IMG/VR virus record: IMGVR_UViG_2663763227_000011
Strand: one strand, 5' to 3'
Length of the DNA: 12,597 nt
From: a virus
Lineage: Duplodnaviria > Heunggongvirae > Uroviricota > Caudoviricetes
In this document: piece after piece, positions 4,926 through 12,597 of the stretch
Position numbering within the stretch: the stretch's first letter is position 1
How the letters are laid out: each line of letters begins with the position of its first letter
The notes under the pieces: generated by a model
What the model saw: the letters and a program-made list of their open reading frames with translations, nothing else
Told to the model about the DNA's origin: nothing
Database searches by the model: none
Program-made: the position numbers and the translations under genes

Positions 4926-5131
4926 TATTCACCCCCATAATTTTTATGCATCCCAAGCGCCGCAAGTAAATAAGAGCGTACAAGTGAACCTATCGACGGC
5001 TCCGGCGTCATCAGCGGATCCAGTCCAGCCGCCACGCCAGCCTCATAGTTTTTTTTGTGGCGCTGCTTGAGCACCTCCACGATTTCGGGGCTTATGTACA
5101 CCGAAACACCGCCTTTTTTCTCTTCAGCCAT
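4925..5131 (-). CDS. Hypothetical small protein, 68 aa, first gene of the capsid operon; N-terminus resembles a ribbon-helix-helix fold
   Basis: ATG at 5131 with GAGGAA Shine-Dalgarno. N-terminus KGGVSVYISPEIVEVLKQ has the beta-strand then helix pattern of RHH regulators (tentative). Stop overlaps the capsid start. Confidence 0.5.
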   Translation of the reverse strand: MAEEKKGGVSVYISPEIVEVLKQRHKKNYEAGVAAGLDPLMTPEPSIGSLVRSYLLAALGMHKNYGGE

Positions 5132-5166
5132 AGTAAGAAATTCCTCTTCGACTTAAAAAATCATAA

Positions 5167-5215
5167 CTGGATGTTCATCCAGCTCTGATTATAATCAGGA
5201 TTGCGTTTTGTGCAA
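5167..5215 (-). promoter_or_regulatory. Near-consensus sigma70 promoter for the capsid operon with two adjacent CTG...CAG palindromes
   Basis: On the - strand: -35 TTGCAC (5215-5210), 16-nt spacer, -10 TATAAT (5193-5188). The -10 lies inside the perfect 14-bp palindrome CTGATTATAATCAG (5185-5198); the perfect 16-bp palindrome CTGGATGttCATCCAG (5167-5182) covers roughly +1 to +16. Confidence 0.5.
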
Positions 5216-5296
5216 TGATATTGAGTTGTGTTGCAAATTATGAAATGATGATCCCGCTCATGTGTGTCAGTGCACCAAAAAGCCTCATATGCAAAA

Positions 5297-5333
5297 GCCC
5301 GATAAGCCACCTCTGACCTTATCGGGCTTTTTT
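5297..5333. terminator. Strong hairpin terminator between the replication and capsid operons, probably bidirectional
   Basis: Perfect 10-bp stem GCCCGATAAG / CTTATCGGGC with an 11-nt loop, followed by T6 on the + strand and preceded by A4 (U4 on the - strand). Confidence 0.5.
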
Positions 5334-5507
5334 ATCTGCCTGCAAAGATGTCGAACGAAAATTAACCACAACCATCATCTTTTTTGCATCAAAACAATTA
5401 AAAACAATAAATTACGCTCATGATGATGATGACGATAAAATCACAAAAATGCGCTTTTTTCCGCGCTTCCCGCCCCGTGTTCAGGCCCACCCCGCCAGGA
5501 GGACCCG

Positions 5508-5530
5508 TAAAAAAGCCGGATTGCTCCGGC
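5508..5530 (-). terminator. Rho-independent terminator after SSB
   Basis: On the - strand: hairpin GCCGGA-GCAA-TCCGGC (5515-5530) followed by a U-rich run (5508-5514), 17 nt after the SSB stop. Almost identical in sequence to the terminator at 3067-3089. Confidence 0.65.
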
Positions 5531-5546
5531 TTCTGTCTCTCGTCGC

Positions 5547-5969
5547 TTAAAACGGTATGTTATCCCCGTACGGATCATCATTCCCCGCCTGTTGTTTTGC
5601 CCTGTTCAGCGCGTCAGTAGCCTGGCCCTGTTGACCTTTTTTGCCGCCCAGTCGCGCCGTTCGCGCACTGATTACACTGTCTGCGATAACCTGCCAGCCC
5701 TGCCGCGTTTCTCCGTTCTGCCCAGTCCACTGGCTGATCTGCATGTTACCCGCCACGCTCAGGAGTTCACCCTTGCGGTGCCTTTCCAGTGCTTCGGCCT
5801 GTCTGCCAAATGCCAGGACGGATAACCACATCGTCGCCGTTCCGTCATCTGCCTGGCTGCACGGAAGGGGGACCGCCATACGCGCCAGCGTCATCGGTGT
5901 GCCCTTGCTGGTCTGTTTTACCTGCGGGTCGTCCACCAGCCGCCCGTAAGCTGCTATCTGTGCTGTCAT
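5547..5969 (-). CDS. ssb: Single-stranded DNA-binding protein (SSB), 140 aa
   Basis: OB-fold SSB pattern (GRLVDDP...WLSVLAFGRQAE...KGELLSVAG...WTGQNGETRQ) followed by a Gly/Gln-rich linker and a C-terminal acidic ...DDPYGDNIPF tail resembling the E. coli SSB DDDIPF tip. GGAGAGG Shine-Dalgarno; ATG overlaps the upstream TGA (ATGA). Confidence 0.85.
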   Translation of the reverse strand: MTAQIAAYGRLVDDPQVKQTSKGTPMTLARMAVPLPCSQADDGTATMWLSVLAFGRQAEALERHRKGELLSVAGNMQISQWTGQNGETRQGWQVIADSVISARTARLGGKKGQQGQATDALNRAKQQAGNDDPYGDNIPF

Positions 5970-6532: not shown

Positions 6533-8287
6533 TTATAAAAACGCGTCGCACTCGTCTGTTGTTATTGCGTTAGTCTGCGTTACCCCCTTAACTTTCCGCG
6601 TAATATATTCATGTCCGTAAACTTTTGCGGCAGGCTTCATAGCCTTTCCAAAGTCATTTACGTTTAGCGGTTTGCTCCTGCCTGCGTATGCCATAAACGC
6701 CAGATAGACGCGGTAAAGGCTGTTCCTGGTCGTGTACTTCACTGAATCGCCACCGCCCCCCATCATCAGGCCGCGCGCTTCCTCCAGAAAATTCAGGAAC
6801 TGGCAAAACTCAATAACCGGATCCGTCTGTTGCTTTATTGCCAGTGCTTCATCACCGTCACGCTGTTCCAGTAGTAAAGCCCGTGCCTTCTCAGGGTCGG
6901 TAAAGTTCGCCAGCAATCGGCGGATAATGACAGGGATTTCAGCCGCGATCTTTTCCGGTAGCTCCCTGTCTTTTTCGGCCTCACTGACGATATTGTCGAA
7001 ACGGAAAATCACGCGACGACGTGCCACACCTCCGGCCCGTTCGGTGAATATCATCGGGTTATTGTTGGTCGCCAGCACCACCGCCCTGATTACAGCCGTG
7101 AAACGCTTTTCGTATTTCGGGTTAATTTCCACGGGGTCACCGCCCGTGATTTTCTTGATGCCCGTTCCTTCGCCTGTATATTTCGGCTGGTCAGCCAGGA
7201 CGATAAGACGACTCCCGACAACCTGCGCACGTCCACCAGCATCATCAAGCGATGTCATTTCAGCGCTTACCGTGTTCTGTTTCCCTGCCAGAAGGCTGGC
7301 TATGTGCGTGAATGTACTTTTACCGCTCCCGCCGTCTCCGGTGGCCTCAATAAACATCTGCCAGTCGTACCGGTTCGCCATAATCATGTACAGCGCGGCA
7401 CATATACGCATCATCTTGCGCGGGTCTTTTCCGGCTGCGTGCTCAAGCCATTTATGAAAGTTTGGCGCGTTATCGCGGATGTTCTCCCCTGGTGCTGGTG
7501 GCGTGTACTCAATGCCGTTGTGCGTGGTGATCCAGTTCTCCGGCGTGTGCGGGGAAAATCCCCCCGTTTTCAGGTCAAGCGCACCATTGGCGAACGGCAG
7601 CAAATCGCCGGACGGCTCGCCCATTGGTTCGGCAATAACTTTTAACGCTTCCACGGCGTTATTGATTACGCGCTTGCTGAAAGTGGCCCTGTGCTCTGAA
7701 TAGATCGCCACCATTTCGCGGCTAAGTTCCATTGTGCTGACCGGACACCATACCCCGCCGCGCCATACGTGAACGATTTCACTTTCAGGATGTACGCAAA
7801 CGCCATCAAAGCGATCGGCAAGCAGCTGCGCGCGCTCACTGTCCGCCATCTGCGAAAGTTGCGCCTTTTGCTTTACCGGAAGCTCAATGACCAGACCATC
7901 AGAAAGATTCTGGCGCTCACGGGCCAGATATTCGCGCCAGTTCTCCACCTTCTGACCGTGCATACCATCAGGGTAAAAATTTGCATCCTGTACGCCTGCC
8001 GCCGCCAGCTTCTGGCCAATCGCCTTTATCATTACTGGCGCAAGATATCCGGCCCTGAATATGCGCACGGATTTTCTGCCTTCCGGCACAATTTGCAGCT
8101 TATCCAGTTCTGATAACTGCTGCTCCCCAAGCCACACAGGAGGCTCATTATCTCCGGCCATACGCGCATCATGTTCCTGCCATTGTTTCGCGTGTGCCCA
8201 GGCATCACTACCCGCAAAAATAATGACTTCTGTTCCTTTGTGTTTTATGCCGCGTGACTGCTGTTTTACGTTCGGTGCCAGTTTCAT
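6533..8287 (-). CDS. Primase / replication initiator with SF3-type P-loop NTPase domain (P4-family primase-helicase; Pri-Rep-like), 584 aa
   Basis: Walker A motif GDGGSGKST and Walker B-like RLIVLAD in the C-terminal half, a long N-terminal primase-like region, adjacent iteron origin. ATG overlaps the upstream stop (ATGA). Confidence 0.9.
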   Translation of the reverse strand: MKLAPNVKQQSRGIKHKGTEVIIFAGSDAWAHAKQWQEHDARMAGDNEPPVWLGEQQLSELDKLQIVPEGRKSVRIFRAGYLAPVMIKAIGQKLAAAGVQDANFYPDGMHGQKVENWREYLARERQNLSDGLVIELPVKQKAQLSQMADSERAQLLADRFDGVCVHPESEIVHVWRGGVWCPVSTMELSREMVAIYSEHRATFSKRVINNAVEALKVIAEPMGEPSGDLLPFANGALDLKTGGFSPHTPENWITTHNGIEYTPPAPGENIRDNAPNFHKWLEHAAGKDPRKMMRICAALYMIMANRYDWQMFIEATGDGGSGKSTFTHIASLLAGKQNTVSAEMTSLDDAGGRAQVVGSRLIVLADQPKYTGEGTGIKKITGGDPVEINPKYEKRFTAVIRAVVLATNNNPMIFTERAGGVARRRVIFRFDNIVSEAEKDRELPEKIAAEIPVIIRRLLANFTDPEKARALLLEQRDGDEALAIKQQTDPVIEFCQFLNFLEEARGLMMGGGGDSVKYTTRNSLYRVYLAFMAYAGRSKPLNVNDFGKAMKPAAKVYGHEYITRKVKGVTQTNAITTDECDAFL

Positions 8288-8583
8288 TTTTTACCCCTGA
8301 ATCCGTTAATCATGGTTTTCAGCTTCTGGATGTTTGCCCGTGCCCTGGCGTTGCTGGTGGGCACGTTATGCGGCGCGGTCTGTACCAGAGAAAAATCACG
8401 CCGGAACTGATAAACAGGCATCACGCAATCATATTCGTAACCTTCACGGCGGTAGGTTACACGCCGTTCTTCCACGCCCTTAATCATTACCGTGCCGCCG
8501 TACTGGTCGCGGTAAATATCACCGCGCGTAAATTTAGGGTGAGTGTTGCCACTGGCAGTTAAGCCAGAATATTTAAGTTTCAT
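8284..8583 (-). CDS. Hypothetical protein, 99 aa, immediately upstream of and coupled to the primase
   Basis: ATG at 8583; stop overlaps the primase start. Protein-like composition; no family recognised. Confidence 0.55.
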   Translation of the reverse strand: MKLKYSGLTASGNTHPKFTRGDIYRDQYGGTVMIKGVEERRVTYRREGYEYDCVMPVYQFRRDFSLVQTAPHNVPTSNARARANIQKLKTMINGFRGKK

Positions 8584-8588
8584 TATTT

Positions 8589-8822
8589 TTATTCTCCGGT
8601 GTGCTGTTCTTTATATCTGTCGTGCAATAGATCTATTTCTTGCAGTTCCATTATTACAGGCTCAAGAAGCGTTATTAATGCCGTGGCAATTCTTGATTTT
8701 TGTTTGTCGCGTTCATTATCGCCAAGTGTTTCAAGCCATATGCGCAATATTTCCAGCATGTTTTCACTGTGAGAAAGTGCAAGAAATGCGCGGTCTATTG
8801 TTTCGTGGTAAATATCACGCAT
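8589..8822 (-). CDS. Hypothetical protein, 77 aa
   Basis: ATG at 8822, placed 1 nt after the upstream TAA (TAATATG); TAA stop at 8589-8591. Confidence 0.5.
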   Translation of the reverse strand: MRDIYHETIDRAFLALSHSENMLEILRIWLETLGDNERDKQKSRIATALITLLEPVIMELQEIDLLHDRYKEQHTGE

Positions 8823-8823
8823 A

Positions 8824-9258
8824 TTAATCCCCGTCCGTCGTTTTTCTTAAAATAACCTCTGTCACGAAATCAGCATAATCGGCGGCGATATTCAGTACAT
8901 CAAGCCCCGTTGATTTATATTCTCTCGTGGAAAGTAAGAAAAAAGCCGCTCTAATAAGTTCTGGCATTGACGAAAGCGCATCAGCCGCATCATCAGGAAC
9001 GCCGGAAAATTCCTGTTTCAGGGAATTAAAACGATCATCACGCATAACCCCCCCATTTTCACAATCGGCAACAAGAATATTTTTAGCGTCATTCAGTGAC
9101 CGCGTTGCGATGTATCGGATACATTCCAGGGCGAACGTTGTCCGGTCTTTCTGTTCTTCTCCCTGTGCAAGCTCTGCCGTGCATTCAATATCAATAAGCG
9201 CGTGCATCAGCGTAGTGAGCGCGGCGGCGGCTGCGTCCGGTGTGGTTTTATTGCACAT
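8824..9258 (-). CDS. Hypothetical acidic protein, 144 aa
   Basis: Preferred start is ATG 9258, which has a GGAGGGG Shine-Dalgarno 5 nt upstream and overlaps the end of the 76-aa ORF by 11 nt. The longer 9312 start in the ORF track would overlap that ORF by 65 nt. Confidence 0.5.
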   Translation of the reverse strand: MCNKTTPDAAAAALTTLMHALIDIECTAELAQGEEQKDRTTFALECIRYIATRSLNDAKNILVADCENGGVMRDDRFNSLKQEFSGVPDDAADALSSMPELIRAAFFLLSTREYKSTGLDVLNIAADYADFVTEVILRKTTDGD

Positions 9259-9478
9259 GTACCCCTCCGCATTTTTTTTCGTTAGAAATAAGCGTTCTTC
9301 TTTCCTGTTCATCGCTCAGGAATACGCAGACCTCACCGCTAAGGCGTTTAAGTAAGCCGATGATTGCCCCTGATTCGCTGTCGGTCATCATGCTAGGGTA
9401 ATCCTCTGCCAGTGCGCAAATAACTTCGATTTGGTGGGCGCGTTCTGCTGCCTGTTGTAGTGTGATTTCCTGGCTCAT
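9248..9478 (-). CDS. Hypothetical protein, 76 aa
   Basis: ATG at 9478 overlaps the TGA of the upstream 66-aa ORF (ATGA); its 3' end contains the Shine-Dalgarno and start of the next gene. Confidence 0.5.
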   Translation of the reverse strand: MSQEITLQQAAERAHQIEVICALAEDYPSMMTDSESGAIIGLLKRLSGEVCVFLSDEQERRTLISNEKKCGGVHVQ

Positions 9479-9675
9479 AAGCCTACCCCCTGACGAATAC
9501 GGGCAGCAAATACCATCACGCAGCCAGCCGGAGATTGCTGGCGTGCTTCCTGTTCGCTGGTGGCCTCAATGGTAATCACGCGCGGTTGTGCCGTGCTCAG
9601 GGCGATAAAACGCCAGATGTATTTATTCAGGTTGTGCGAGTCCCGCCCTTTCGGGTGTGTGGTATGATTTCTCAT
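9475..9675 (-). CDS. Hypothetical small protein, 66 aa, first gene of the replication operon; tentatively Icd-like
   Basis: ATG at 9675 with GAGGT Shine-Dalgarno 4 nt upstream. This is the in-frame tail of the 428-aa ORF in the track, here treated as an independent gene. The YIWRFIAL motif reminds me of proteins annotated as host cell division inhibitor Icd-like in P4-like prophages (memory only). Confidence 0.5.
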   Translation of the reverse strand: MRNHTTHPKGRDSHNLNKYIWRFIALSTAQPRVITIEATSEQEARQQSPAGCVMVFAARIRQGVGL

Positions 9676-9771
9676 AGCTACCTCGATACTGTTGCTATCG
9701 TTGGTGGTTAGAAGCCCCGTTACTGCTCCTACAGTGCGGGGTTTCGTCGTTTCTGTGCCTTTCATCAATAA

Positions 9772-9854
9772 GGTGTAAGACACAATGTAAAACAATGGTG
9801 TCTTACACGTCAACCCTTCAAAATATTTTTTTTTCGTGTATATTGTCTTACACC
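9772..9854. promoter_or_regulatory. Divergent back-to-back promoters with three copies of an 11-bp operator half-site GTGTAAGACAC
   Basis: Perfect inverted repeat GTGTAAGACAC (9773-9783) / GTGTCTTACAC (9798-9808) with a 14-bp spacer, plus a third half-site TGTCTTACACC (9844-9854). Leftward promoter: -35 TTGACG (rc of 9809-9814) and -10 TACATT, with the inverted repeat spanning its core. Rightward promoter: -35 TTCAAA (9817-9822), 16-nt spacer, -10 TATATT (9839-9844), overlapped by the third half-site. Confidence 0.55.
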
Positions 9855-9874
9855 AAAAACATGAGGGGTTAAAC

Positions 9875-10054
9875 ATGGCAACGGGTCCAAAGAATGCAAA
9901 ATCACAATCTGTAACTGCACGTATTGCCCATGAAATTATTGAAGGCATGGAGAACGTGAAAGAAGAAGGCGAAAGCACGGGACAGTTTATAAACGCAGCC
10001 ATGCGCGGCGAAATCAAACGCCGCCAGCGCCGCAAGGCCAAAGAGCAGGAGTAA
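9875..10054 (+). CDS. Small ribbon-helix-helix-like DNA-binding protein, 59 aa (candidate repressor of the divergent promoters)
   Basis: ATG 9875 with GAGGGG Shine-Dalgarno 6 nt upstream. SVTARIAHEIIEGMENVKEEGESTGQFINAAMRGEIKRRQ fits an RHH beta-strand plus two helices; good E. coli codon usage. Opposite in orientation to every other island gene. The ORF track's 9836 GTG start is rejected. Confidence 0.6.
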   Translation: MATGPKNAKSQSVTARIAHEIIEGMENVKEEGESTGQFINAAMRGEIKRRQRRKAKEQE

Positions 10055-10111
10055 CCATCACCAGCGCCGTGGTGTGAGTAACTACGGCGCATTGCTATGC
10101 AGGACAACACA

Positions 10112-10285
10112 ATGACCGATAAAGAATTGACCAAAACATTATCACCGGCACGGAAAAGACGGCGCAGAAAGATAGAGCATGAATCAGAAAGATTCGCGCC
10201 ATGTGCTTTTGCCCTTGAGCAATTCCTTAAAGAGTACAGGGAAAAGCGCTCATTGCAGGTATGGCAACGAACTGAACCAGACTGA
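10112..10285 (+). CDS. Small, highly basic protein, 57 aa, co-transcribed with the RHH gene
   Basis: ATG 10112 with AGGA 7 nt upstream (the ORF track starts at 10097). Contains RKRRRRK; rare codons suggest horizontal origin; followed by + strand terminators. No family recognised. Confidence 0.45.
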   Translation: MTDKELTKTLSPARKRRRRKIEHESERFAPCAFALEQFLKEYREKRSLQVWQRTEPD

Positions 10286-10364
10286 TTGCATTGCCCACCA
10301 GCCGCAAATGTGGCATTGTTGGCAATGCTCATGCGTTGGGGATAACGTGTAGCTTGTGTCGAGG

Positions 10365-10393
10365 GGCCACCGTAGCGGGTGGCCTTTGTTTTG
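10365..10393 (+). terminator. Rho-independent terminator of the + strand cassette
   Basis: GGCCACC-gtagcg-GGTGGCC hairpin followed by TTTGTTTTG. A second + strand hairpin with a GCAA loop and T-run at 10488-10520 may act as a backup. Confidence 0.55.
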
Positions 10394-10761
10394 CCCGTTA
10401 TTCGGCAATTGTGGCGCTTCTCCACATGGTTGATATAATCCCACTGCTCAGATTCATTTTTTGCGCAGTAGGTTAATTGTTCACAAAGGCGCTCCGGCAA
10501 CGGGGCGCTTTTTGTTTTTATTAGTTTGTAGAAACCTGACTCAGAGATAATGCTCATATTCTGATTGCCGTCAGGGGTGTAAGTTAAATTTACTCCCTTT
10601 TTATCATCAAACATCTGCAACGCTCTGGCGTTAACAATATTGGTTTCACTCCCGCCAGTAAGGCCGGAAATAACCGGAATAATTTCGGCAAAATTTTGCA
10701 GATTCTGTTTTTCAGGACGAACGAAGCCCCGCCCTTGTTCGGGAGAATATCCAGTATTCAT
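10380..10761 (-). pseudogene. KilA-N/Bro-N-like (antirepressor-like) N-terminal coding region with no in-frame stop; probably a truncated or disrupted gene
   Basis: The first ~125 aa are protein-like and contain TYTPDGNQNMSIISESGFYKLI, resembling the Bro-N/KilA-N core (P22 Ant-like SVINESGLYSLI, from memory). Beyond about 10380 the same frame continues for ~230 codons of Cys/Ser/Arg/Trp-rich junk, antisense to the + strand genes, until it joins the 66-aa ORF. The lower coordinate is approximate. Confidence 0.4.
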
Positions 10762-10813: not shown

Positions 10814-11002
10814 TTAGTGAACTGCCTCGCAGCTGTCCTTCCATGCCAGAACTTCGGATAAAGACCAGCCAACGGAACGACCGCCCAGCTTACGCCGTGA
10901 TGGGAATTGTCCGGCTTTTTCCAGGCGGTACCGACATGAGCGGCTCAGGCCTGTAAGTTGCTGACATTCTTTTTCACGTATAAAGCGATCTGTGCTTAAC
11001 AC
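10814..11002 (-). CDS. alpA: AlpA-family phage regulatory protein (Xis-like winged-helix activator), 62 aa
   Basis: LTGLSRSCRYRLEKAGQFPSRRKLGGRSVGWSLSEVLAW matches the AlpA/Vis family signature (TG-SR-T-Y...FP...LG-RSVGW...EV--W). GTG start at 11002 with GGGGGA Shine-Dalgarno; TAA stop at 10814-10816. Confidence 0.85.
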   Translation of the reverse strand: MLSTDRFIREKECQQLTGLSRSCRYRLEKAGQFPSRRKLGGRSVGWSLSEVLAWKDSCEAVH

Positions 11003-11367: not shown

Positions 11368-12597
11368 TTATATTTCTCTGGCTATTGGCAATGTGGTTAC
11401 GTTTTCATGTGTTCCCGCCAGTATCCCTAACCGCTCCGTCCACATATCCAGCGCGTCACGTTTCGCATCCAGATAACGGGAATGGTTATAGACTCGTTGC
11501 ATCCCTGGCATCTGATGACCTGTAAGCTGCTCCACGACGTGAGGATCCACGCCTAAATCGTTCAGCATCGTTGTAAAGGTGCGCCGGATGTCATGCAGTG
11601 ACCAGTGAGGGTGTTTTAGCCTCCTGTGCGCTAATCTGCCGTACTGCGACACGCTTGTTTCCTGTTTCACTTCCCCCAGCAATAAGCCCGTGTGCCTGTT
11701 CTGCTCCACCAGCTGCGTGACGAACGGCAGTATTGCTTCCGGTATGGGCCGGAATATTGCCACCTTCGTTTTGCTGTGTTCTTTCGGCACGGTCCAGAGC
11801 ATTTCGGTAAAATCCCACTCGCTGATCTCCGATAACCTCAGTTCTACCGTCCGGCATCCGAAAACAATCAGGAGGCGGATTAGTGCGACGTAGTAAGGGG
11901 AAAATATTTTTTTGTCCAGTGCCTGCAATAATTCGCCAAGTTCTTTGGTGCTTAAGACACGCTCGCTTATATCCGGTTTTTTCCCAACGTCCGCCACACT
12001 CATATCATCAAGAACGTTGCTGATTGCATAGCGCCGCCTCCGGCAGAACTTAAGCGCCTGTTTGCACGTCTGTAGCAAGAATCCGGCAGTAACAGGCGTT
12101 CGCTTTGCCACCTGGTCAAAACAGGCCAGCCAGTGCCGTAGCTCGCATTTATCCAGCGGCATAGCACCAATGTGCTGTATTACGTGATTATTAAGGCGCT
12201 TTTTCAGGGCGGCATAATCCACGCGGTTTTCCTTTACGTAAGACTCAAGCCAGTAGGTAAGCGCATCGCCAACCGTTACGGGCTTTAACGCTTTCTGTAC
12301 GGTGTAATTCATCTCATGACGTGGATTTTTCCCCTCAGCAAGCCAAGCGCGACACTGTGCCGCTTTTTCCCTGGCAGCTTTCAGACTCAGATCAGGATAA
12401 TTTCCCAGCTTAATCCGTTCCGGTCGTGCTCCCCTTCCCGTTCCGGCCCTGTAGGTGAAATACCAGGTTAAAAGGCCGCTGGTTGAATGCCTGACGCTCA
12501 GGTTTCCACCGTCATTAAGAAAGGCTGTTTTTTGGGCGGGTGTGCCGTTGATTTTCCTTAGCTGTGTATCACTCAGTTTGTTAAGTGCTCTGCGCAT
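11368..12597 (-). CDS. int: Tyrosine-type site-specific integrase, P4/CP4-57 family, 409 aa
   Basis: N-terminus LSDTQLRKINGTP...GGNLSVRHSTSGLLTWYFTYR matches the P4-type integrase arm-binding domain. The C-terminal catalytic region has RTVELRLSEISEWDF, HDIRRTF and the HxxxRxxY-type tail (GHQMPGMQRVYNHSRY). The start codon sits exactly at the window edge, so the true start and the adjacent att site cannot be verified. Confidence 0.9.
   Translation of the reverse strand: MRRALNKLSDTQLRKINGTPAQKTAFLNDGGNLSVRHSTSGLLTWYFTYRAGTGRGARPERIKLGNYPDLSLKAAREKAAQCRAWLAEGKNPRHEMNYTVQKALKPVTVGDALTYWLESYVKENRVDYAALKKRLNNHVIQHIGAMPLDKCELRHWLACFDQVAKRTPVTAGFLLQTCKQALKFCRRRRYAISNVLDDMSVADVGKKPDISERVLSTKELGELLQALDKKIFSPYYVALIRLLIVFGCRTVELRLSEISEWDFTEMLWTVPKEHSKTKVAIFRPIPEAILPFVTQLVEQNRHTGLLLGEVKQETSVSQYGRLAHRRLKHPHWSLHDIRRTFTTMLNDLGVDPHVVEQLTGHQMPGMQRVYNHSRYLDAKRDALDMWTERLGILAGTHENVTTLPIAREI

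What the first reader, a model, noticed from the sequence alone, without database searches (positions are those of the whole stretch)
8284..9675. Five translationally coupled small ORFs (66, 76, 144, 77, 99 aa) leading into the primase
These genes have overlapping or abutting stop/start junctions (ATGA, TAATATG, an 11-nt overlap) and sit behind the operator-controlled leftward promoter. None has a family I can assign confidently; the first may be Icd-like. In satellites, small early proteins at this position often carry out helper interference or derepression, so these are candidates for uncharacterised functions.
Basis: inference. Interest (0 to 1): 0.45.

Follow-up and report, generated by a model that had tools for sequence, protein, structure and literature searches.

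The report
Early operon of a known PICI
The five small genes are real and tightly coupled, but they are the already catalogued early operon of the model E. coli phage satellite EcCICFT073: the first is a homologue of the P1 Icd / P4 Kil cell-division inhibitor, the last is the published regulator RgdR, and the three in between remain of unknown function.

Summary
Observation confirmed. Five minus-strand ORFs (66, 76, 144, 77, 99 aa) run into the primase with 4-nt, 11-nt, 1-nt-gap, 5-nt-gap and 4-nt junctions.

The window is the EcCICFT073-type PICI between phoQ and roxA, 96.6% identical to CFT073 over the query.

- **ORF1** is a true Icd homologue, in the same NCBIfam family as P1 Icd and the Kil end of P4 Eta. 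It is also the last 66 codons of a 428-codon, Eta-like frame kept open from alpA in 20 of 24 related intervals.
- **ORF5** is RgdR (DUF4222), 98/99 identical to the O157:H7 protein. It has an SH3/Tudor-like predicted core. It overlaps the replication gene by ATGA in 51 of 53 islands, whichever replication protein follows.
- **ORF2-4** are helical proteins known only as PHROG families. ORF3 evolves fast and is fused or split by a G7/G8 tract. ORF2 occurs in under 5% of E. coli genomes.

Across 53 distinct operons, 258 of 260 junctions are overlaps or gaps of 6 nt or less, while gene content varies (33 architectures).

Published data assign lambda interference to RppA and saw no helper induction by these islands. 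The helper-interference reading is therefore unsupported. Ordinary, with some new detail.

The parts
10814..11002 (-). alpA (62 aa), the activator gene upstream of the block
   Evidence: Pfam Phage_AlpA E 3e-18. Shown to activate EcCICFT073 genes in PMC6092414.
9475..10761 (-). Eta-like long ORF (428 codons). It has a Bro-N-like remnant at the N-terminus, runs antisense through the ylcI/ynfO-family gene and the 62-aa ORF, and ends as ORF1.
   Evidence: Listed. The frame is open (0-1 stops) from the alpA stop to ORF1 in 20 of 24 distinct related intervals, against medians of 21 and 18.5 stops in the other two same-strand frames. P4 eta has the same layout (PMC10111431). Bro-N match is weak (E 0.067), but there is 59% identity to an intact Bro-N protein in L011.
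9784..9813 (-). Sigma-70-like promoter for the short transcript: -35 TTGACG, 18-nt spacer, -10 TACATT
   Evidence: Consensus scan. The TTGACG is conserved in related islands. Not shown experimentally.
9772..9854 (.). Three copies of an island-specific operator-like site (GTGTAAGACAC) at 9773-9786, 9795-9808 and 9844-9854
   Evidence: the repeat finder. The site sequence changes together with the allele of the divergent ylcI/ynfO-family gene across islands.
9710..9745 (-). Conserved hairpin in the ORF1 leader, followed by the nearly invariant CTTCTAACCACCAACG
   Evidence: MFE z-score -2.4 for the whole leader. 12 predicted pairs, 4 with compensatory changes among 6 sequences including Serratia. 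No Rfam family, and in particular not C4.
9475..9675 (-). ORF1, 66 aa: Icd/Kil-family protein, the short form of the long ORF
   Evidence: NF033153, 69.9 bits. P1 Icd and the P4 Eta/Kil C-terminus hit the same model. BLASTP against P1 Icd E 2e-6. Median dN/dS 0.27. PGAP-68-aa versions in most islands.
9248..9478 (-). ORF2, 76 aa: accessory helical protein of unknown function
   Evidence: phrog_1478 E 3e-28. Found in only 261 of 5426 complete E. coli genomes, nearly all at 95% identity or more. Fused to ORF3 in some records (217-221 aa).
8824..9258 (-). ORF3, 144 aa: two-module helical protein of unknown function
   Evidence: phrog_2512 for the full length, phrog_5146 for the N half and phrog_24341 for the C half. 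404 homologues; the best 120 are nearly all E. coli, at 66-99% identity. Median dN/dS 0.48, range 0.18-1.03. AF2 model has low confidence (pLDDT 54) and is all-helical. No PDB relative.
9048..9054 (-). G7 tract at the boundary between the two ORF3 modules. G7 gives the fused 144-aa protein. G8 gives two 73-aa ORFs with an 8-nt overlap, as in CFT073.
   Evidence: In the loci held, 27 copies are G7 and 37 are G8. Both states occur on identical 506-nt flanks and are interleaved among nearest neighbours.
8589..8822 (-). ORF4, 77 aa: helical protein of unknown function, nearly always the gene just before DUF4222
   Evidence: phrog_2196 E 8e-42. Only 9 representatives among 1.84 billion 50%-identity clusters. 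Distant relatives sit at the same position in other islands and in cf-PICI vB_KppS-Ant. Median dN/dS 0.25.
8284..8583 (-). ORF5, 99 aa: RgdR (DUF4222)
6533..8287 (-). pri-rep (584 aa), the P4-type primase/helicase that the block leads into
   Evidence: D5_N, DUF5906 and Pox_D5. TIGR01613 scores 106.5 bits, just under its 108.7 cut-off. 99% identical to the CFT073 protein.
9875..10054 (+). Divergent ylcI/ynfO-family gene (59 aa from the ATG; 72 aa from the GTG at 9836), a candidate repressor of the block
   Evidence: NF041551 E 8.8e-18. Only 68% identical to the CFT073 allele although ORF1 is 97% identical. Co-varies with the operator-like sites. Its codon position 2 is the most conserved.

Best explanation
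The five ORFs are the early operon of an EcCICFT073-type phage-inducible chromosomal island. In layout it is the counterpart of the P4 left operon (vis - eta/kil - epsilon - orf151 - orf106 - alpha).

**Expression (inferred).** The block is read as one polycistron in which ribosomes pass from gene to gene across 4-11-nt overlaps. Two routes seem possible:
1. A short route from an internal sigma-70-type promoter. That promoter is overlapped by three island-specific operator-like sites, probably bound by the divergent YlcI/YnfO-family protein.
2. A long route from the AlpA-activated transcript. Translation would continue from alpA through a 428-codon Eta-like frame that ends as ORF1.

**Products.**
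- ORF1 is an Icd/Kil-family protein. On induction it most likely arrests host division or growth. As the first translated frame after the control point, it also gates expression of everything downstream, as icd does for ant in P1.
- ORF2, ORF3 and ORF4 are island-specific, exchangeable small helical proteins of unknown function.
- ORF5 is RgdR, a small SH3/Tudor-like, non-specifically DNA-binding protein made in fixed stoichiometric coupling with the replication initiator. I infer that its native role is in the island's own replication or transcription. On that view its published effects on LEE and motility are side effects of that activity.

**Shown:** the anatomy, the homologies, the conservation, and the published phenotypes of orthologues.
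**Inferred:** promoter use, repressor identity, read-through translation, toxicity of ORF1 in this island, and the native role of RgdR.
For: **Identity of the island.** Same locus and 96.6-97.7% identity to CFT073 and Nissle.

**Coupling.** Junctions. In 53 distinct operons, 258 of 260 junctions are overlaps or gaps of 6 nt or less, and the DUF4222-to-replication-gene junction is ATGA in 51 of 53.

**ORF1 as Icd/Kil.**. P1 icd also overlaps ant1 by 4 nt and is annotated as required for ant expression. [quoted passage not shown]

**Long open frame.** Conserved across related islands.

**Promoter and operator-like sites.**. The sites co-vary with ylcI alleles.

**AlpA.** It activates downstream EcCICFT073 genes, and its overexpression drives pri-dependent replication and loss of viability (PMC6092414).

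**Icd-like genes in related satellites.** In ECOR61, transposon insertions in the Icd-like gene and two small ORFs suppress phage-gene-triggered growth arrest (the ECOR15 P4 hits were in the integrase, AlpA, Icd-like, a hypothetical and the primase). Six linked genes including a primase reconstitute the effect (bioRxiv 10.1101/2023.04.06.535777).

**RgdR.** Orthologue experiments in PMC3378721. DUF4222 sits directly upstream of four unrelated replication proteins: P4-type primase, RepA helicase, DUF927 and lambda O-like. Fold evidence.

**Purifying selection.**
Against: - No experiment on this island's ORF1-ORF4 exists in the papers I could search.
- The promoter is only a 9/12 consensus match, in a region where as many matches are expected by chance (5 found, 4.2 expected).
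- The co-variation of operator-like sites with ylcI cannot tell whether the binder is YlcI or something encoded on the other strand of the same DNA.
- The window's Eta-like ATG lies 52 nt after the alpA stop and has a weak SD, so coupling to alpA is less direct than in most relatives.
- Unlike P1 and P4 there is no C4/CI RNA here, so the gate logic is by analogy only.
- Fillol-Salom 2018 treat RgdR as an accessory virulence gene, not a life-cycle gene.
Confidence: 0.6

Rival explanations
1. ORF2-ORF4, and perhaps ORF1, act on the helper phage. They would be interference proteins or helper derepressors, like P4 epsilon, which sits at the same place in the P4 operon.
For: - The position is the same as P4 epsilon/orf151/orf106, which also have 8-nt overlaps.
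- ORF3 evolves fast (dN/dS up to about 1).
- Cassette content varies widely, with 33 architectures in 53 operons, as expected in an arms race.
- Only genes located after the ori were screened for lambda interference (PMC6739421), so these ORFs were never tested.
Against: - There is no match to the epsilon family PF25738 or to any P4 protein.
- Deleting rppA alone restores lambda plaquing to near island-free levels (PMC6739421).
- No helper induction by an incoming Gram-negative PICI was seen (PMC6092414).
- There are no PADLOC hits.
Confidence: 0.15
2. The block works as an abortive-infection or programmed-cell-death module. A phage accessory protein triggers expression, and the Icd-like protein, helped by the small ORFs and runaway replication, stops growth of the infected cell.
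For: - In ECOR61, suppressors of orf24-triggered death map to an Icd-like gene and the two small ORFs after it. Six linked genes including a primase are needed. Removing the Icd-like gene abolishes the effect.
- In an ECOR15 P4 satellite, suppressors hit int, alpA, Icd-like, a hypothetical gene and the primase.
- AlpA overexpression reduces viability of cells carrying EcCICFT073 (PMC6092414).
Against: - The ECOR61 small ORFs differ in size (about 61 and 63 aa), and their homology to the window's ORFs could not be tested.
- Growth arrest may simply be the by-product of satellite induction, which is the best explanation above and not a separate function.
- There are no PADLOC hits.
Confidence: 0.15
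3. RgdR (ORF5) is accessory cargo, a host virulence and motility regulator, with no role in the island's life cycle. ORF2-4 are dispensable or decaying filler.
For: - RgdR and c1493 change LEE1 expression and motility (PMC3378721), and RgdR is classed as accessory in PMC6092414.
- ORF2 is in under 5% of genomes.
- ORF3 is split in many islands.
- The ORF4 family is tiny.
Against: - DUF4222 keeps an ATGA overlap with the replication gene in 51 of 53 operons, whichever of several unrelated replication proteins follows.
- It also directly precedes gene O in lambdoid phages.
- It is present in strains without LEE, such as CFT073 and Nissle.
- ORF3, ORF4 and ORF5 all show dN/dS below 1, and both states of the ORF3 G-tract keep intact frames.
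Confidence: 0.1

Closest known systems
EcCICFT073, the model Gram-negative PICI of E. coli CFT073 (Fillol-Salom et al. 2018, 2019)
   Same: - Same chromosomal site (phoQ / roxA), same gene order, and 96.6% nucleotide identity over the query.
- int, alpA, pri-rep, SSB, capsid and decoration homologues and RppA are all present.
- Per-ORF identities: ORF1 97%, ORF2 99%, ORF4 90%, ORF5 94%.
   Different: - ORF3 is one 144-aa gene here (G7) but two 73-aa genes in CFT073 (G8).
- The ylcI/ynfO-family allele and its operator-like sites differ: 68% aa identity, GTGTAAGACAC here against GTGGGCCACAC in CFT073.
Left operon of satellite phage P4 (vis - eta/kil with CI RNA - epsilon - orf151 - orf106 - alpha)
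   Same: - An alpA/vis homologue is followed by a long frame whose C-terminus is an Icd-like domain. In P4 the match is 73.9 bits to NF033153.
- A run of small ORFs with 8-nt overlaps follows, then a P4-type primase.
- The long frame is open from the alpA homologue.
   Different: - There is no CI/C4 RNA or isrK-like leader here, whereas both are found in P4.
- A divergent protein gene with operator-like sites is present instead.
- The small ORFs are unrelated to epsilon, orf151 and orf106.
- RgdR/DUF4222 is absent from P4.
- The primase is shorter (584 aa against 777 aa).
immI operon of phage P1 (c4 RNA - icd - ant1/ant2)
   Same: - ORF1 and P1 Icd belong to one NCBIfam family and align at 35% identity over 43 aa.
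- In both, the Icd gene is the first frame after the immunity control point and overlaps the next gene by ATGA.
   Different: - There is no C4 antisense RNA or a/b target sites here.
- The downstream genes are small ORFs and a primase, not an antirepressor.
- Division inhibition is shown for P1 Icd only.
RgdR (ECs1581) of EHEC O157:H7 O-island 51 / CP-933C (Flockhart et al. 2012)
   Same: - ORF5 is 98/99 identical to the O157:H7 protein encoded at the same phoQ-roxA locus.
- It has the same length, and the RGD motif is at residues 20-22.
- DUF4222 match.
   Different: - The O157 island carries a RepA-type helicase (frameshifted in the strain examined) instead of the primase, and a different set of middle ORFs.
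- The host of this window is unknown; its closest relatives, CFT073 and Nissle, have no LEE for RgdR to regulate.

Membership tests
Icd family (NCBIfam NF033153, phage_ICD_like; type member P1 Icd) | Match to the family model above its curated cut-off | tested here: met
   ORF1 scores 69.9 bits (cut-off 25), E 1.4e-19, residues 19-62.
Icd family (NCBIfam NF033153, phage_ICD_like; type member P1 Icd) | Detectable similarity to the characterised member itself | tested here: met
   P1 Icd (L015:3471-3692) hits the same model at 52.6 bits. BLASTP of ORF1 against P1 Icd gives 35% identity over 43 aa, pairwise E 2e-6. A database-wide tblastn did not reach P1.
Icd family (NCBIfam NF033153, phage_ICD_like; type member P1 Icd) | First ORF after the immunity control element, translationally coupled to the next gene | tested here: met
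   ATGA overlap with ORF2. P1 icd/ant1 has the same 4-nt overlap.
Icd family (NCBIfam NF033153, phage_ICD_like; type member P1 Icd) | C4/CI antisense RNA immediately upstream | tested here: not met
   No RF01695 match in the window, even at E up to 10. The same model finds P1, P4, a Morganella element and L007.
Icd family (NCBIfam NF033153, phage_ICD_like; type member P1 Icd) | Inhibition of host cell division when expressed | not testable with these tools
   Needs induced expression and microscopy.
P4-type left operon (eta/kil design) | Long ORF running from the alpA/vis homologue, in frame with the Kil (Icd-like) end | tested here: met
   The 428-codon ORF at 9475-10761. 0-1 stops in that frame in 20 of 24 related intervals, against about 20 in the other frames. 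The P4 frame is open from inside vis.
P4-type left operon (eta/kil design) | Promoter internal to the long ORF | tested here: inconclusive
   Consensus-level match TTGACG-18-TACATT, conserved in relatives. No transcript data.
P4-type left operon (eta/kil design) | Epsilon (helper derepression) homologue | tested here: not met
   PF25738 matches P4 epsilon at E 9e-51 but none of the window ORFs. BLASTP gives E above 0.02 against all P4 proteins.
P4-type left operon (eta/kil design) | P4-family primase at the end of the operon | tested here: inconclusive
   TIGR01613 scores 106.5 bits, just under its 108.7 cut-off. D5_N, DUF5906 and Pox_D5 pass their Pfam cut-offs. phrog_864 DNA primase E 3e-175.
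RgdR / DUF4222 (Pfam PF13973) | Match to PF13973 above the gathering score | tested here: met
   85.7 bits (cut-off 27), E 1.6e-24, covering the full 53-position model.
RgdR / DUF4222 (Pfam PF13973) | Orthology with the characterised protein: 99 aa, RGD at residues 20-22, same island locus | tested here: met
   98/99 identical to the O157:H7 protein next to roxA. 94% identical to CFT073 c1493. R20-G21-D22 present (PMC3378721).
RgdR / DUF4222 (Pfam PF13973) | Activates LEE1 / type III secretion, represses motility, binds DNA non-specifically | not testable with these tools
   Shown for ECs1581 and c1493 in PMC3378721, not for this allele.
Gram-negative PICI (EcCICFT073 type) | Co-oriented int and alpA, pri-rep, about 10-15 kb, no lysis or tail genes, specific att site | tested here: met
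   int at 11368-12597 (cut by the window end), alpA, pri-rep, SSB, capsid and decoration homologues and RppA, all between phoQ and the window end. Same locus as CFT073.
Known anti-phage defence systems (PADLOC-DB 2.0) | Match of any of the five proteins to a defence-system model | tested here: not met
   No family at E up to 0.1.

The most novel reading that the evidence does not exclude
The variable middle of the operon (ORF2-ORF4 and their many alternatives) is a fast-evolving, exchangeable set of helper- or host-directed effectors. The ORF3 G7/G8 tract would be a reversible switch between a fused protein and two separate proteins. At the same time, DUF4222/RgdR would be a general Tudor-like cofactor that temperate phages and satellites place directly in front of whatever replication initiator they use. 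It might bind RNA polymerase or the initiator, which would explain its pleiotropic effects on host transcription.
Probability: 0.2. Interest if true: 0.55.

Novelty: already known. Interest (0 to 1): 0.3.

Why it matters
EcCICFT073 is the reference Gram-negative PICI, yet the segment between alpA and pri-rep has never been dissected.

Placing ORF1 in the Icd/Kil family and recognising the Eta-like long frame ties PICI induction to the well-studied P4 and P1 immunity designs. It also points to a concrete candidate for the 'missing' PICI repressor: the divergent YlcI/YnfO-family protein and its co-varying sites.

The strict linkage of RgdR/DUF4222 to replication genes suggests that a protein known only as a virulence regulator has a primary role in element replication or transcription. 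If so, this would change how its effects on LEE and motility in EHEC are read.

None of this makes the five ORFs a new kind of system. It gives testable hypotheses for an existing model.

Tried and rejected
1. **C4/CI-type RNA immunity upstream of ORF1.** Rejected. There is no Rfam hit in the window at gathering score or at E up to 10. The model does find P1, P4, a Morganella element and L007.
2. **ORF2, ORF3-N, ORF3-C and ORF4 as tandem paralogues.** Rejected. BLASTP shows nothing significant, and hhalign probabilities are 2.5% or less.
3. **The 428-aa ORF as a mere shadow of the ylcI gene.** Codon-position counts favour ylcI as the constrained protein frame. But the frame is kept open over 480-1180 nt in 20 of 24 divergent intervals. 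I now read it as an Eta-like frame maintained for being open, not for its sequence.
4. **Structure of ORF3.** The AF2 model is too poor (pLDDT 54) for a fold search. A profile search of PDB sequences found nothing.
5. **PDB sequence searches** for ORF1, ORF5 and YlcI found nothing useful.
6. **AFDB50 fold search.** The library was unavailable. The BFVD search returned only uncharacterised small phage proteins and DUF1653.
7. **DNA search of phage records with the block.** No match.
8. **Genome-contig scan with the primase.** Only 3 loci were returned. The Serratia and Morganella elements have Icd-like genes but no homologues of ORF2-5.
9. **YmfM as a DUF4222 protein.** Rejected. The match is to an unannotated ORF in another frame.
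10. **P4 orf151 as a distant DUF4222 protein.** BLASTP gave E 0.025 in a five-sequence database. Pfam does not support it.
11. **Defence-system models.** No hits.

Full report
**What the window is**

Bases 1-1461 encode the C-terminal 486 residues of PhoQ. The rest is an island read on the minus strand. In order it carries an integrase (cut by the window end), alpA, the block in question, a 584-aa primase/helicase, SSB, lambda E- and D-like capsid genes, and a 144-aa protein at 2499-2933.

A megablast of 8284-9800 against complete E. coli genomes finds the block in 1804 of 5426 genomes. It is 97.7% identical in Nissle 1917 and 96.6% in CFT073. The CFT073 hit lies between phoQ and roxA, with the same gene order.

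This is EcCICFT073, the model Gram-negative phage-inducible chromosomal island (PMC6092414). Its lambda-interference and packaging-redirection protein RppA is c1503, the 144-aa gene after the ori (PMC6739421).

**The observation**

The five ORFs and their junctions are exactly as described:

| Junction | Type |
|---|---|
| ORF1 / ORF2 | ATGA, 4-nt overlap |
| ORF2 / ORF3 | 11-nt overlap |
| ORF3 / ORF4 | TAATATG, 1-nt gap |
| ORF4 / ORF5 | 5-nt gap |
| ORF5 / primase | ATGA, 4-nt overlap |

Each start has a purine-rich motif upstream.

All five proteins match families:
- ORF1: NCBIfam Icd-like
- ORF5: Pfam DUF4222
- ORF2, ORF3 and ORF4: PHROGs of unknown function

I collected 75 related loci from RefSeq E. 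coli, IMG/VR and three other genera. Median dN/dS against the window alleles is 0.27 (ORF1), 0.48 (ORF3), 0.25 (ORF4) and 0.28 (ORF5), compared with 0.10 for the primase. ORF2 is too invariant to test.

I chained ORFs from the Icd-like gene to the replication gene in 53 distinct operons. Of 260 junctions, 258 are 4-, 8-, 11- or 14-nt overlaps or gaps of 6 nt or less. The last junction is ATGA in 51 of 53. Tight coupling is therefore a conserved property, not an accident of this copy.

Gene content is not conserved. There are 33 different small-ORF architectures, with two to six ORFs after the Icd-like gene. Per-gene identities vary independently of one another between islands. These islands also differ in integrase, attachment site and replication protein.

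**ORF1**

ORF1 scores 69.9 bits against NF033153. P1 Icd itself scores 52.6 bits against the same model, and the two align at 35% identity over 43 residues.

In P1, icd follows the C4 RNA, overlaps ant1 by 4 nt, and is annotated as needed for ant expression.

The P4 ORF annotated 'cI gene product' carries the same domain at its C-terminus (73.9 bits). According to PMC10111431 this is eta. [quoted passage not shown] That old P4 annotation also plausibly accounts for the 'transcriptional repressor' label on the PHROG families that ORF1 hits.

ORF1 is also the last 66 codons of a 428-codon frame that starts 52 nt after alpA. At first I took this for a shadow ORF, because it runs antisense through a ylcI/ynfO-family gene. 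Codon-position counts do favour ylcI as the constrained protein frame.

The frame is nevertheless open, with 0-1 stops, from the alpA stop to ORF1 in 20 of 24 distinct intervals of 480-1180 nt. The other two same-strand frames carry medians of 21 and 18.5 stops. P4 eta behaves the same way. ORF1 therefore most likely exists in two forms:
- a short, Kil-like product from an internal start
- the C-terminus of an Eta-like product translated from alpA read-through

Unlike P1 and P4, the window has no C4/CI RNA. The Rfam model does find one in P4, P1, a Morganella element and an E. coli island that carries a second Icd cassette.

**Control region**

A sigma-70-like promoter (TTGACG-18-TACATT, 9813-9784) is flanked by three copies of GTGTAAGACAC. 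In other islands the three sites keep their positions but change sequence. They change together with the allele of the divergent ylcI/ynfO-family gene. That gene is only 68% identical between this window and CFT073, although ORF1 is 97% identical.

It also makes the YlcI/YnfO-family protein a candidate for the repressor that Fillol-Salom et al. could not identify. I found no functional work on this family.

The leader carries a hairpin with compensatory changes, and it is conserved as far as Serratia.

**ORF5**

ORF5 is RgdR. It is 98/99 identical to the protein of O157:H7 O-island 51 at the same locus and 94% identical to CFT073 c1493. RGD is at residues 20-22.

Flockhart et al. showed that ECs1581 and c1493 activate LEE1 and type III secretion, repress motility, and bind DNA non-specifically (PMC3378721). 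[quoted passage not shown]

Three things are added here.
- **Position.** DUF4222 sits immediately upstream of the replication gene whatever that gene is: P4-type primase, RepA helicase or DUF927.
- **Lambdoid phages.** An unannotated 73-aa DUF4222 ORF overlaps the CDS annotated 'YmfM' in another frame and overlaps gene O by 11 nt.

At these scores the fold class is credible. The specific partner is only a lead.

**ORF2-4**

- **ORF2** occurs in 261 of 5426 genomes, almost without variation.
- **ORF3** has 404 detectable relatives, and the best 120 are nearly all E. coli. It evolves fastest and is built of two modules that exist as separate PHROG families.
- **The ORF3 G-tract.** A G7 tract at the module boundary (9048-9054) gives the fused protein here. 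G8 gives two 73-aa ORFs with an 8-nt overlap in CFT073. Among the loci held, 27 copies are G7 and 37 are G8. Both states occur on identical flanks and are interleaved among nearest neighbours, which points to repeated slippage. Some homopolymer sequencing errors cannot be excluded.
- **ORF4** has only nine representatives among 1.84 billion protein clusters. Distant relatives hold the same position in other islands and in a capsid-forming PICI.

No structure, PDB relative, defence model or P4 homologue was found for any of the three. They are not paralogues of one another.

**Function**

- Deleting rppA restores plaquing (PMC6739421).
- No helper induction by the island was seen (PMC6092414).

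These ORFs were never tested directly, however.

Work on related satellites supports a growth-arrest role for the Icd-like gene. In ECOR61, transposon insertions in the Icd-like gene and the two ORFs after it suppress growth arrest triggered by a phage accessory gene. In an ECOR15 P4 element the hits were in the integrase, AlpA, the Icd-like gene, a hypothetical gene and the primase. Six linked genes including a primase reconstitute the effect in ECOR61 (bioRxiv 10.1101/2023.04.06.535777).

I could not obtain the ECOR61 contig, so homology of its small ORFs to ORF2-4 is untested.

**Verdict**

But the block is the known early operon of a model satellite, with two of its five genes already assignable.

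The useful new points are:
- the Eta/Kil reading of ORF1
- the co-varying operator and ylcI pair
- the strict linkage of DUF4222 to replication genes, and its Tudor-like fold
- the G7/G8 fusion/fission of ORF3

These are refinements and hypotheses within a known kind of system.

Noticed in passing
window 9772-10054 (operator-like sites at 9773-9786, 9795-9808 and 9844-9854; ylcI/ynfO-family gene at 9875-10054, + strand): Each related island has three copies of its own ~11-bp site at fixed positions around the ORF1 promoter. The site sequence changes together with the allele of the divergent YlcI/YnfO-family gene. This makes the gene a candidate for the so far unidentified repressor of Gram-negative PICIs. 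No functional literature on this family was found.
   Followed up: partly
window 9475-10761, minus strand: A 428-codon frame runs from just after alpA to the end of ORF1, antisense to ylcI and a 62-aa ORF. It is kept open in 20 of 24 related intervals, like P4 eta. Its N-terminus is a remnant of a Bro-N domain that is intact in another island (L011:4434-5012).
   Followed up: yes
window 9710-9745, minus strand: The ORF1 leader carries a hairpin with compensatory base changes, conserved in E. coli islands and in a Serratia element, followed by the nearly invariant CTTCTAACCACCAACG. It has no Rfam family. Its role is unknown.
   Followed up: partly
window 9048-9054 (G7); L001:9751-9778 (G8): A homopolymeric G tract in ORF3 toggles between a fused 144-aa gene and two overlapping 73-aa genes. 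Both states are common (27 against 37 copies) and are interleaved among near-identical sequences.
   Followed up: yes
L016:2438-2659 (phage vB_EcoM-720R4); same place in L017 (mEp460): An unannotated 73-aa DUF4222 ORF (Pfam E 3e-19) lies in a different frame inside the CDS annotated 'YmfM' and overlaps replication gene O by 11 nt. Published filamentation phenotypes assigned to ymfM regions might need checking against this ORF.
   Followed up: partly
L007:3898-3986 and L005:3699-4160: Some E. coli PICIs carry a second, longer Icd-like gene, and in L007 it contains a C4-type antisense RNA (74 bits). It is inserted right after the first Icd-like gene. These islands would thus combine protein-operator control with P4/P1-type RNA immunity.
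   Followed up: no
proteins P0001, P0003, P0017, P0029 (217-221 aa): Database proteins of 217-221 aa cover all of ORF3. Their length fits a fusion of ORF2 and ORF3 across the 11-nt overlap, and one was seen on 52 contigs. O111 strains have a 230-bp ORF2 region with one annotated gene fewer.
   Followed up: no
window 10359-10390 and 10477-10515, + strand: Two terminator-like hairpins end the short plus-strand ylcI + 62-aa-ORF unit. They lie inside the Eta-like frame on the other strand, so transcription from alpA has to pass them in reverse.
   Followed up: no
window 5000-5550 compared with L001:6038-6286: CFT073 has a PerC-family regulator gene between the SSB gene and the capsid module. No ORF of comparable size is listed at the corresponding place in the window. 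It may be missing or degraded here.
   Followed up: no
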